A stretch of 64,000 nt of DNA from Stylophora pistillata. Its lineage: Eukaryota. Both the position numbers and the translations under genes were made by a program. The first letter of the stretch is position 1, and each line of letters begins with the position of its first letter. Positions 6,011 to 62,231 of the stretch are shown here, in pieces. The stretch covers positions 62,001 through 126,000 of the forward strand of contig NW_019218244.1 of NCBI RefSeq assembly GCF_002571385.2, given 5' to 3'. Below the pieces are notes generated by a model. The model had not been told where the DNA came from. It worked only from the letters and a program-made list of their open reading frames with translations, and made no database searches.

Positions 6011-7620
6011 ATTAATATATGGAGTTTCGAGATGGTCATAGTTAATTATTTATTTTATATTTTGATTTTTACAACTAGGGCTTACAGGAGTTGTTAGTGA
6101 AATGCCAGAGTTTTAACTTTCATAAAAAAGTTTCCTACCTCTTTTTTTGTTAGCGTTCTTTATATTCTGCGGAATGTATTTTTCGCGACTCGTAAAGCTT
6201 TCGTCGGCCTGGAGTTTGCATTTGCAACGCCAATTTTTTGTTGGTCTGCAAGTTTGGAAATCTTCTCCAACGTGGTCTAACACCGTTCGTGGATAGGTAT
6301 TTTTGCTAGCTTAGAGCTGTTTCGTTTCTCTGCCACAGAAAAAATCCACGATCACGACTGGACTTCTAGCCCAAGCCAAATACCAGTCAGCTTGTCTAAG
6401 CGAACCCTAATCCCATCGTTTTGTTTCTTCTTTACGATTTTTCCCTCTTTTATTCACCGTTTTACACACTTCGAGCGAGAGACTCTTACGAACAAATTAT
6501 TATGAAGAAGCAGTGTTTTCTTTCCGGCTAGGGGGCCGAATAACTTCTCCCCGAGTATGGTTTGGAGCTGGAGGACAAGGAGGTTATAACTCTCCATCTA
6601 ACTTGCAGTTGGGGGTCGAGTAACTCCTCCCCGTGAAATTTCGAATTTTTTCGTTGTTTTTTTAATTTACCCCTTATTATCAACGTTTTTAATCCTTTTA
6701 TTACCTTTTTTGTGAGCAGCAATTATTTTGGGCCACTGTGAAATTTATTCTGGTACGGTTTTGGTACGTGTCGGTTGCTAATTTTTTTTCATGGTGATAC
6801 AAGTGGGTTCATCGAAGTCGCAGGTTCGAATGACGCTATGGGAGCTATTCTTGCTCTGGATTGGGGGCCGTATACATTCTCCCCGAGTGTGATTTGGAGC
6901 TGGCAGTTGGCAGATCTAGGGGAAATCGCGCTCCGCTGTTCTGCAGCATTTCATAATTCCACCTTTCAGTACACTGTAGCCGTTTACTCGTCGAAACTGT
7001 ACGGTGTATAACGTTCTTTAAAGAGCGAGCTCTGACATTTAGAGCCAAACTTGTGATTTATCACAAAAATATTATTATATTGGAAACCAAAGGGTAGGAA
7101 AAGAGAGAATGGAACAATACGTACGAGGGTTGGGGGGATGGAGCGTCTAGAGCATTTTCAATGATTTATCCACAACCACGTAGCTCGTACGTTCTTGGAA
7201 ACAGCAGTTGGTCGGTGTAAGTATATGAACAACCCTGTAATAAAGTTTTACTAATGTAGATTGTATTCTGTTATGATGTTGATTTAGTGATAAAATGGAT
7301 ACAGAGAAAGAGCTGTTAACGATAAAGACTGTTTGCCACTTTTCTCAGAACAAAATTGACCAGGAAGGTTGTCATTTGAAACAATGTCGCACAGAAAGTA
7401 AAAGTGATATTCAAAACTCTTACAACTTACTCCCTATCCCCAGACAGTGACCAATGATTAGCTTTCTACCTTGACAAGAAAACTTATCCAGTACGAGATC
7501 CACGAGCTCTATTTTATTTTTGGTTGTGTGAAAATTGTCATAACAGTGATGATATCTAAAGTGTTGTATTGTCTGCATTAACTTGTTTCTCGAGGCTTCT
7601 TTAGTCACATCCTTTGTTAA

Positions 7621-60700: not shown

Positions 60701-62231
60701 CGAACTTCAGGAAGGGCAAGTGTCCTTTTATACCATCGTTCTTCAAAAGAAACCGCCTGCGATTAAATTCCCAGCAAACAAGAAAAAGAACATTCCTCTT
60801 GGAGGGTCTGGAGGCAAACCTAATTTTGTCGATCTGGACATCCCGGCAAATGCCTTCCTCACAGCTGATGGAAGAGTATATAATGGTGAGATCACTGCAA
60901 GTATTGGGGTGATTGATCCTAGAAGCCAGGCAGACATGACAGCAGCCCCTGGGGATTTTTCAGCGATAGACGACAATGGAGAGGAGGTGCCCCTTGGATC
61001 TGTTGGAATGCTGAGGCAAGTCTTTACAGACAATAGTGGTAATCAGCTCAGTCTTAATAAAAACATCTCAGTCCGCATCGACGCTGACCAGTTAGATATA
61101 CCCGATGGTGTCACAGTTTATCAATGGTACCTGAGCAAGGAAACAGGTCGCTGGGTTAAGTTCGGGGTATTACGCCCCGAGCAAGGAGGAAGTTCAAGAC
61201 TCAAGAGACGGTCACCAAGGAAGTTCTTTGTGAGTGAAATTACACCAAATGTTCCTTTGGACAATATCAACTGGGATTACGTTACTGTTGTCAGTTACGT
61301 CCGAGTCAAGGCTCCTTCAGGCACTGTAGTGACTCGCATCGGTCTGAGCGACAATGGGCTACAGTACACTTCTTATCGCCAAGATACAGTCCCTGCTAGC
61401 GGAACCCTGTGCATTTTAAGCTTACGAGACAAACGAGCCATTCTTCAAGCCGAACGCGATGGAGTGCCTCTCGTTCCACGACAACCTACTGGCTTTCCTT
61501 CATCGGTGAACCCCCAGATCATTGATGGGTCGTCTGTGGGAAACGTTTTCAAAATTCAGTCCTTCCGGTTCACTTCCACCAAAGCAGATGATAGAGGTCC
61601 CGTTTACCTCAGAGGCGAGCATGGCAGATGTGCTCAAAGAGGAGCAAATGATTTTGCTTTTGAATTCCGAGATGCTAATGTGGGGCAATTGTTCCACTGG
61701 CAAAGTATTAGAATTAAAGATCCCAACGATATTCGGTTGTGGCAGGTGAGACCTGATGAGATTTGTTTTGTCAAAGCACTTGTGGTAGGGTCAAAGCCTG
61801 ACTCAGTTATATATGTGAAGAGCTTTGGAAAAGCTCCTGGTCTATCCAACGTGGATTACGGTTACACTGCGGAGAAGAGTGCCACGGTTGGTGGACAAGG
61901 TGTGGTGTGCTTGGAATACCGATGTAATGAGGGTTCATCAGGGCAGTACCAGACCCACTTACAATTCCTCACGCTGACAGGATCATGCACAGTTCAGGGG
62001 CTCAACAGTGTTTTGAATGGTGCACAAAACCAATGCACTGTGCCGCCAGCCAGTTCCTCAAGTCAAGAGCGCAACTTTTGTGTTCCACATTTAGTGGGAG
62101 GCGATGCTGGGCTCTACTCTGGAGATACAGGTGTGGCCAAGAATAGGTGTCTCACAGGGAACCAGCAGTACAACTCAGGCCGACCAACTCCTACAAATCT
62201 AAACCCTACAGTCACCATAAATTGCCAGTAA
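54798..62231 (+). CDS. CILP-like secreted protein, copy B (~982 aa): signal peptide, 4 EGF, Ig, CILP core
   Basis: Exons 54798-54849 (MAACPGSLILVLFFCFG), 55540-55580, 56397-56460. EGF exons 56706-56876, 57140-57253, 57910-58020, 58269-58376. Ig exons 58896-59001 and 59210-59364. Terminal exon 60205-62231. Total 2949 nt, in frame. Confidence 0.88.
55601..55810. mobile_element. MITE in CILP-B intron 2
   Basis: Imperfect TIRs atgaaggggatctcaatgggg / ccccattgagaccctcat. Confidence 0.6.
58425..58506. repeat. (AAT)n microsatellite
   Basis: Interrupted AAT/AAC/GAT run in an intron. Confidence 0.95.
58596..58759. mobile_element. Hairpin MITE (~65-bp arms)
   Basis: caccgaatacaaatatggcgtccaatttg... 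/ ...caaattggacgccatatttgcattcggtg. Confidence 0.7.
60205..62231 (+). CDS. Large terminal exon of CILP-like copy B
   Basis: Acceptor TTTCAG at 60204, phase 1; open to the TAA ending at 62231 (ORF track 60249-62231). Confidence 0.92.

What the first reader, a model, noticed from the sequence alone, without database searches (positions are those of the whole stretch)
7000..62231. Head-to-head pair of secreted-protein genes duplicated as an intact unit
The lobe-TSP1 gene (minus) and the EGF-Ig-CILP gene (plus) are divergently oriented, with ATGs 5.1 kb apart (12668/17805) and 6.2 kb apart (48603/54798). The whole pair occurs twice and all four ORFs are intact. CILP introns are no longer alignable between copies, so the duplication is old and not allelic. 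Vertebrate CILP carries an N-terminal TSP1 domain, which these CILPs lack and the neighbouring gene has. Speculative inference: a co-regulated two-component extracellular module in which recognition and TSP1 functions are supplied in trans.
Basis: partly seen in the sequence, partly recalled or inferred. Interest (0 to 1): 0.7.

Follow-up and report, generated by a model that had tools for sequence, protein, structure and literature searches.

The report
Conserved head-to-head coral secreted-gene pair
Two back-to-back genes for predicted secreted coral proteins, a cartilage-matrix (CILP) relative and a likely sugar-binding protein, occur twice in tandem here and their relatives are annotated as neighbours in two other coral genera, but the second gene did not inherit the domain the first one lacks, and two RNA samples do not show the genes switched on in lockstep.

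Summary
The pair is real, occurs twice, and all four genes are transcribed. Named relatives show conserved linkage: consecutive locus tags in Oculina, two adjacent pairs in Desmophyllum, and likely one scaffold in Orbicella. Orientation there is unknown. Both lobe genes have an upstream 5' UTR exon, so the promoters lie much closer than the ATGs (about 0.7 kb in copy B, inferred). Corrections: (1) CILP-A holds a 2,626-bp insert, most likely an assembly error, that truncates its annotated protein. (2) The copies are not one age: dS 0.27 for the lobe genes, 0.60 for CILP, flank 95% identical. (3) The TSP1-in-trans idea fails: the neighbour's TSP1 groups apart from CILP TSP1s, and 7 of 7 other CILP-like loci in this genome keep TSP1 in cis. 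In other corals this CILP subfamily has an N-terminal C-type lectin instead. (4) Between two RNA samples CILP-B changes about 16-fold and lobe-B about 1.3-fold. Co-duplication of 2-3 neighbouring genes is already described in corals. Verdict: a conserved, repeatedly co-duplicated gene pair with a domain-shuffled CILP; a two-component module is unproven.

The parts
7500..12685 (-). lobe-TSP1 gene A, coding exons 12668-12370, 9222-8948, 8497-8323; stop formed by the splice to 7621; 249 aa: signal peptide, three-repeat Cys-rich lobe, one TSP1
   Evidence: identical to XP_022803230.1; Pfam TSP_1
13985..14173 (-). 5' UTR first exon of lobe-A (upstream end at 14173 or beyond)
   Evidence: RNA joint 12685/13985 in X8 (contig) and X24 (2 reads); lies in the only A/B intergenic homology, 13728-14209 vs 51186-51677
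17805..36741 (+). CILP-like gene A: signal exon, two small linker exons (19496-19539, 19824-19866), 9 EGF exons, split Ig (29965-30070, 30965-31116), terminal exon 34718-36741; 1170 aa if the insert is skipped
   Evidence: Pfam CILP_5th, CILP, I-set; EGF joints in RNA
25531..29063 (+). internal tandem duplication of a three-EGF-exon block in CILP-A (dS 0.24)
31672..34297 (.). 2,626-bp insert, most likely an assembly error: one N, 622 bp identical to CILP-B 60182-60803, then an exact second copy of 29669-31671
   Evidence: in DNA run X1 the 2003-bp unit has depth 63.7 like its neighbours (61-77), and the 622-bp piece 170.9 like copy B
3390..6005 (.). non-coding flank of copy A, 94-96% identical to 39094-42389; the homology continues left of the window beyond a retrotransposon
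39094..42389 (.). non-coding flank of copy B
45050..48620 (-). lobe-TSP1 gene B, coding exons 48603-48311, 46858-46584, 46113-45940; stop formed by the splice to 45169; 247 aa
   Evidence: all three joints in RNA
51442..51650 (-). inferred 5' UTR first exon of lobe-B, homologous to 13985-14173
   Evidence: alignment with a conserved donor; minus-strand RNA depth in bin 51420-51887; its joint was not among those listed
52382..52995 (+). plus-strand transcribed stretch, candidate 5' end of CILP-B, about 0.7 kb from the lobe-B first exon
   Evidence: 6 of 6 molecules end at 52382 in X22; X8 contig 52385-52995; no plus-strand reads in X24 over 51888-52823, where CILP-B is nearly silent; no joint to the ATG exon was listed
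54798..62231 (+). CILP-like gene B: signal exon, linker exons 55540-55580 and 56397-56460, 4 EGF exons, split Ig, terminal exon 60205-62231; 984 aa
   Evidence: joints in RNA; Pfam

Best explanation
This is a tandemly duplicated head-to-head pair of transcribed genes for predicted secreted coral proteins, a CILP-family protein that carries EGF repeats where other CILPs carry TSP1 and a likely lectin-type beta-prism protein with one TSP1, which likely stay linked and are copied together because their promoters lie close together, not because one supplies the other's missing domain. SHOWN: gene structures, splicing, neighbouring annotation in Oculina and Desmophyllum, unequal divergence along the repeat, and the separate origin of the TSP1. 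INFERRED: unequal crossing-over made the tandem; later gene conversion (or re-duplication) homogenised the lobe side and flank; the starts share a region under about 1 kb in copy B but each gene is tuned separately. Also inferred: the CILP-like protein is furin-cleaved and acts as a matrix scaffold, the lobe protein binds glycans and tethers through TSP1, and both act in parallel in surface defence or wound matrix.
For: Oculina lobe ACROYT_G020914 next to CILP G020915. Desmophyllum CILP KAJ7388752 next to lobe KAJ7388753, and CILP KAJ7388759 next to lobe KAJ7388760. Orbicella relatives both on a 2,707,520-bp scaffold. Each species' copies group together in the trees, so the co-duplications look independent. 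Identity gradient 95% flank, dS 0.27 lobe, dS 0.60 CILP. Lobe A+B are sister against Pocillopora (98/94), while CILP-B groups with unnamed ENA proteins against CILP-A. 5' ends close in copy B. CILP-B and lobe-B change unequally. TSP1 unrelated to CILP's. Groups of 2-3 adjacent genes are known to co-duplicate in corals (PMC10236652, passages). CILP-annotated coral genes respond to disease (PMC9524840 and 10.64898/2026.09.01.748617, passages; subfamily not stated).
Against: Orientation and distance in the other corals were not seen; only locus-tag order and contig length were. The ratio is not 1:1 there (3 CILP tags with 1 lobe found in Oculina; about 3 CILP genes with 2 lobes in Desmophyllum; low-sensitivity search). 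The 52.4-kb transcript is not shown joined to CILP-B. The AU test does not reject CILP A+B as a clade (p 0.066), and the ENA proteins are unnamed. PMC10236652 (passage) regards gene conversion as uncommon in corals. The direction of expression change is concordant within each pair (B higher in X22, A higher in X24; unit A test p 0.40). The lobe fold match is weak (best Z 5.6) and glycan binding is untested.
Confidence: 0.62

Rival explanations
1. Obligate two-component extracellular module: a bidirectional promoter co-expresses a lectin-like recognition subunit and a CILP scaffold that bind each other, so selection keeps and duplicates them together.
For: Linkage in three or four genera; apparently independent co-duplication in Stylophora and Desmophyllum; starts about 0.7 kb apart in copy B; both have signal peptides; concordant direction of change in two samples.
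Against: CILP-B changes about 16-fold while lobe-B changes about 1.3-fold. No lobe-CILP fusion among 4 and 9 longer lobe-bearing proteins (weak searches). The lobe genes are homogenised (90% aa) while the CILPs diverge (79%), which does not look like matched partner co-evolution. Extra CILP copies lack a found lobe partner.
Confidence: 0.17
2. Passive microsynteny: the genes are neighbours by descent only; robust corals keep gene order and duplicate small blocks, so neither promoter nor function matters.
For: About 30% of genes are tandem duplicates in two long-read coral genomes, and 2-3-gene blocks co-duplicate (PMC10236652 passages). The only conserved intergenic sequence belongs to the lobe's own first exon and intron. 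Expression is uncoupled in copy B.
Against: The duplicated unit kept both genes in two lineages; 5' ends are close in copy B. No background rate of neighbour conservation was measured, and the flanking WD40 and KCTD genes were not tested in other species.
Confidence: 0.17
3. Gene fission: an ancestral TSP1-bearing CILP split by inversion, and the neighbour now carries its TSP1.
For: These CILPs lack TSP1 and the neighbour has one. One Orbicella model (XP_020629250.1) ends in lobe-gene-type TSP1 repeats.
Against: The TSP1 is of another type. Lobe+TSP1 recurs on contigs without CILP hits. The full-length member of that Orbicella cluster (P0100) is CTL-EGF-Ig-CILP without TSP1, so the fusion is probably a merged model.
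Confidence: 0.03
4. The second copy is an assembly artefact (two haplotypes placed in tandem).
For: The region has gaps and a false-looking insert. Copy A has about half the DNA depth of copy B in run X1.
Against: 79% aa identity and dS 0.60 between the CILPs; different EGF counts; both copies present in one DNA run and both transcribed within single RNA runs.
Confidence: 0.01

Closest known systems
Vertebrate CILP1/CILP2, and the TSP1-CarboxypepD-Ig-CILP genes of this genome (C300 x5, C1177, C90)
   Same: Signal peptide, Ig, CILP_5th and CILP domains, and a basic furin-type site in the long terminal exon (CILP2 layout from PMC12839030 passages).
   Different: No TSP1 and no CarboxypepD domain before the Ig; 4 or 9 EGF repeats instead; only 28-33% identical to the genome's other CILP-like genes and on a separate long branch.
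Scleractinian CTL-EGF-Ig-CILP proteins (Oculina G020915/G020918, Desmophyllum KAJ7388759, Porites CAH3039619)
   Same: Same subfamily (56-72% identity in the C-terminal part), no TSP1, adjacent lobe gene in Oculina and Desmophyllum.
   Different: Both window copies lack the N-terminal C-type lectin (no relic found) and have two short linker exons there; copy A has 9 EGF. Automatic annotations name these proteins; I found no paper on them.
Biomphalysin small lobe (domain I), predicted as a beta-prism resembling jacalin-type lectins
   Same: Three repeated Cys-rich beta motifs; 14 Cys here against 12 in biomphalysin 1 (PMC12186885 passages); weak structural matches to the Vip3 toxin structures, jacalin/ZG16 lectins and the PCSK9 C-terminus.
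   Different: No aerolysin pore-forming lobe; joined to TSP1. Sequence homology to biomphalysin was not tested directly (the resemblance is recalled). In corals the module is also fused to trypsin, SRCR/Ig, a kinase and adhesion GPCRs.
Coral tandem co-duplication of 2-3 adjacent genes (PMC10236652)
   Same: Block duplication with diverged introns.
   Different: Here one gene of the block and the flank appear homogenised later, which that paper regards as uncommon.

Membership tests
CILP family | CILP-specific domains after the Ig (Pfam CILP_5th, CILP) | tested here: met
   both copies above the curated cut-offs
CILP family | Ig domain | tested here: met
   I-set 4.8e-07 on the second Ig exon; on relatives
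CILP family | Furin-type basic site dividing N- and C-terminal parts | tested here: met
   basic motif at the matching place in A, B, Oculina and Desmophyllum; cleavage itself not testable
CILP family | C-terminal CILP_C domain | tested here: inconclusive
   not scored in the window copies; scored at the cut-off in close relatives P0100 and P0101
Canonical CILP1/2 architecture | N-terminal TSP1 in cis | tested here: not met
   gene models; present in 7 of 7 other CILP-like loci
Biomphalysin-type small lobe / beta-prism | Three-repeat beta-prism fold with about six disulfides | tested here: inconclusive
   all-beta model, pLDDT 72 in 1 of 5 models; best Z 5.6, rmsd 3.9, 112 aligned
Biomphalysin-type small lobe / beta-prism | Sequence homology to biomphalysin domain I | not tested
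   no biomphalysin sequence was returned by any search
Biomphalysin (aerolysin-like toxin) | Aerolysin large lobe | tested here: not met
   protein ends after TSP1 at 247-249 aa
Lectin | Carbohydrate binding | not testable with these tools
   needs a glycan array
Bidirectional-promoter gene pair | Divergent transcription starts under 1 kb apart | tested here: inconclusive
   copy B about 0.7 kb if the 52382 transcript is CILP-B's 5' end; copy A plus-strand reads begin in bin 14968-15634 at low depth; the 1-kb criterion is recalled
Bidirectional-promoter gene pair | Correlated expression | tested here: inconclusive
   same direction but 16-fold vs 1.3-fold in two samples of one study
Split gene (fission of CILP) | Neighbour's TSP1 descends from CILP's TSP1 | tested here: not met

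The most novel reading that the evidence does not exclude
Robust stony corals carry a conserved two-gene extracellular defence cassette: one short bidirectional promoter drives a beta-prism lectin-TSP1 recognition protein and a lectin/EGF-CILP scaffold that assemble outside the cell. The cassette expands as a unit independently in several lineages and varies in copy number between colonies.
Probability: 0.17. Interest if true: 0.65.

Novelty: new variant of a known kind. Interest (0 to 1): 0.4.

Why it matters
CILP-annotated genes appear among coral disease-responsive genes (PMC9524840; 10.64898/2026.09.01.748617), but corals have at least two different CILP subfamilies, one with TSP1 and one with CTL/EGF. 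A conserved, co-duplicating neighbour gives a concrete candidate partner or co-regulated gene for the second subfamily. The unnamed lobe module is a widely shuffled coral extracellular domain with no Pfam model. The probable assembly error also means the public annotation splits CILP-A into two wrong proteins.

Tried and rejected
Complex prediction of lobe-TSP1 (residues 24-249) with Ig-CILP-A (746 aa): verdict 'no answer', score 0.00, alignments not used; no evidence either way. The representative search with the whole lobe-TSP1 protein was swamped by TSP1 repeats and gave one further lobe relative. PDB sequence search found nothing; Foldseek had no hit at E<=0.001. ESM Atlas gave dermatopontin clusters at 0.87-0.90 with the family on 19-23% of members, a lead only; a second Atlas query was not held. 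Long 'open frames' beside other lobe loci were open in all six frames, so I read them as N gaps and not as aerolysin domains. The metagenome scan gave 2 loci, too short to show orientation. No C-type lectin relic in the window. Global intron identities with negative scores are alignment noise and were not used. Earlier-findings look-ups by words, sequence and relatives returned nothing. Not in print as far as searched: five accession terms gave 0 papers; 'cartilage intermediate layer' + coral gave 10 papers, none on this pair by listing; searches likewise by listing. The supplements of the Stylophora single-cell atlas (PMC8162421) could not be read and may hold the cell-type expression of these genes; its main text does not mention CILP.

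Full report
What is there. Self-comparison and exon modelling confirm two divergent pairs. Lobe-A (249 aa) and lobe-B (247 aa) have a signal peptide, a 14-Cys domain without a Pfam match and one TSP1; their stop codons are formed by the last splice. CILP-A (1170 aa, 9 EGF) and CILP-B (984 aa, 4 EGF) have a signal peptide, two short linker exons, EGF exons, a split Ig and a 2-kb terminal exon with Pfam CILP_5th and CILP. Lobe-A equals a named Stylophora pistillata RefSeq protein on a contig of the same length as the window's. RNA runs show splice joints for lobe-B, CILP-B, CILP-A and the lobe-A 5' UTR.

Assembly problem. In CILP-A, 29669-31671 is repeated exactly at 32295-34297; between them lie one N and 622 bp identical to CILP-B's last exon. 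In DNA run X1 the repeated unit has depth 63.7, like its neighbours (61-77) and not double. The 622-bp piece has depth 170.9, like copy B (146-188 in shared stretches). RNA reads entering that piece carry loose ends that match CILP-B's Ig exon. The tool warns that contig depth is no copy number, so this is supportive only. I rate an assembly error at about 85%. The public annotation follows the insert: the 757-aa 'notch-like' protein is exactly the chimera and the rest is a separate 746-aa model.

Age. Nei-Gojobori dS is 0.27 [0.19-0.37] for the lobe genes (dN/dS 0.18) and 0.60 [0.51-0.71] for the CILP last exons (dN/dS 0.20); both show purifying selection. The non-coding flank is 94-96% identical over about 3.3 kb and occurs in two full copies plus one small contig. 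A colinear intergenic remnant (score 154 against at most 50 in 30 shuffles) shows that the whole unit was once copied. Lobe A and B are sisters against Pocillopora (98/94), whereas CILP-B groups with unnamed ENA proteins against CILP-A (99/99 and 98/98). The AU test does not reject A+B (p 0.066). Later homogenisation of the lobe side is therefore likely but not proven.

Promoters. The intergenic remnant covers the lobe's own 5' UTR exon and the adjoining intron start: RNA joins 13985 to 12685, and the donor is conserved in B at 51442. In B a plus-strand transcript begins near 52382 in X22 and X8 and has no reads in X24, where CILP-B is nearly silent. If it is CILP-B's 5' end, the starts are about 0.7 kb apart. 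The linking joint was not among those listed (23 joints not shown). In A, low plus-strand depth starts in bin 14968-15634 and rises near 17 kb.

Expression. Two raw RNA runs of one study were laid, with about 2% of each run read. CILP-B junction reads were 48 vs 3; the lobe-B-specific junction gave 12 vs 9 (Fisher p 4e-4; all three lobe joints 43 vs 33, some possibly from lobe-A). For A, lobe-A alleles were 1 of 23 vs 7 of 14 reads and CILP-A joints 12 vs 22 (p 0.40). The direction agrees within each pair; the size does not in B. Reads are not independent, and genotypes may differ.

Conservation. Lobe ACROYT_G020914 neighbours CILP G020915 in Oculina patagonica. Desmophyllum pertusum has CILP/lobe at KAJ7388752/KAJ7388753 and again at KAJ7388759/KAJ7388760 on one contig. 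Orbicella relatives share a scaffold length of 2,707,520 bp; the lobe-side record there is a TSP1-only fragment in the Oculina lobe's cluster. The Desmophyllum copies group with each other, so that co-duplication appears separate from this one. Strand and spacing were not visible, and extra CILP copies without a found lobe exist. That these families are separated by over 100 million years is recalled, not from a call.

The TSP1 idea. The genome has 7 other CILP-like loci; 7 of 7 have a same-strand TSP1 exon before the Ig (Pfam-confirmed in 4 of 4 scanned). None lies on a contig with any of the 38 other lobe matches. The lobe's TSP1 is separated from all 7 CILP TSP1s (96/95, 58 columns), and none of the 150 scored matches to it (of 617 candidates) is on a CILP contig. 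Lobe+TSP1 recurs in 3 of 10 other lobe regions fetched. In longer proteins the lobe is fused to trypsin, SRCR/Ig, a kinase or adhesion GPCRs, and to CILP in 0 of 9 and 0 of 4; both searches are weak. Other corals' members of this CILP subfamily are CTL-EGF-Ig-CILP without TSP1 (4 of 4 full-length proteins scanned), and the window copies have lost the CTL. So TSP1 was replaced by exon shuffling in an old subfamily, and the neighbour is an independent gene.

The lobe. One of five models is confident (pLDDT 72) and all-beta with three repeats. Structural matches are weak: Vip3 chains Z 5.6 and 5.1, jacalin/ZG16-type lectins Z 2.0-2.9, PCSK9 E about 0.01. Biomphalysin domain I is predicted as a beta-prism resembling jacalins, with 12 Cys (PMC12186885, passages; PMC8047071, passages). 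It works like a recognition module by inference; membership and glycan binding are untested.

Literature seen: passages only of PMC8047071, PMC12186885, PMC12839030, PMC10236652, PMC9524840, PMC8162421 and 10.64898/2026.09.01.748617; search listings for the rest. No supplements were seen; those of PMC8162421 may settle co-expression.

Verdict. A real, expressed, conserved and repeatedly co-duplicated head-to-head pair containing a domain-shuffled CILP and an unnamed beta-prism-like module. Block duplication is ordinary for corals, the in-trans TSP1 rationale is refuted, and a functional two-part module remains possible (about 0.17). Interest 0.4.

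Noticed in passing
window 12345-30452 vs 44400-56519: In DNA run X1, copy A contigs have depth about 61-107 and one 5.8-kb contig has no differences, while copy B shared stretches have 146-188. Copy A may be present on one haplotype only, or copy B may be a collapsed duplicate.
   Followed up: partly
L002:80-1079 and 2251-2627 (G000:C460, about 9-10 kb left of the window): A third, inverted copy of the lobe gene's last intron and 3' UTR (77%) without coding exons nearby, next to a retroelement: relic of a further lobe copy.
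   Followed up: partly
window 88-3529 and L002:9098-10000: LTR-type retrotransposon (RT, RNase H, integrase; pol in several broken frames) inserted in copy A's flank, with a 140-bp match at both ends.
   Followed up: no
window 9710-12090: 639-bp duplicate (99.7%) on both sides of a 712-N gap in lobe-A intron 1, holding a GIY-YIG fragment (Penelope-like, label recalled); probably a scaffolding artefact. A second GIY-YIG fragment lies at 18387-18794.
   Followed up: no
window 21967, 26568-26570, 27028-28216: Run X8 carries a CILP-A allele with 4-5 differences per 110-120 bases and small indels in EGF exons, while its CILP-B EGF exons differ by 0-1: CILP-A may be highly polymorphic.
   Followed up: no
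G000 C453, C94, C451, C352, C906, C1752, C43, C397, C1198 and others: The lobe is a two-exon module with at least 40 exon matches in this genome, in tandem or joined to TSP1 or EGF. In named coral proteins it heads trypsin, SRCR/Ig, receptor-kinase and adhesion-GPCR proteins, yet has no Pfam model.
   Followed up: partly
G000:C300:61860-195164: Cluster of five TSP1-bearing CILP-like genes in both orientations.
   Followed up: partly
P0101 (Orbicella XP_020629250.1): CILP model ending in lobe-gene-type TSP1 repeats, implying such exons directly downstream on the same strand there; probably a merged model.
   Followed up: partly
L002:4973-6627 and L003:2238-3083: Flanking genes of the array: a WD40 gene on the left and a KCTD8/12/16-like gene on the right, useful anchors for synteny.
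   Followed up: no
L018:3584-4120 (G000:C90, about 704 kb): One exon with four tandem TSP1 repeats, and an EF-hand/SPARC-type exon, upstream of the C90 CILP-like gene.
   Followed up: no
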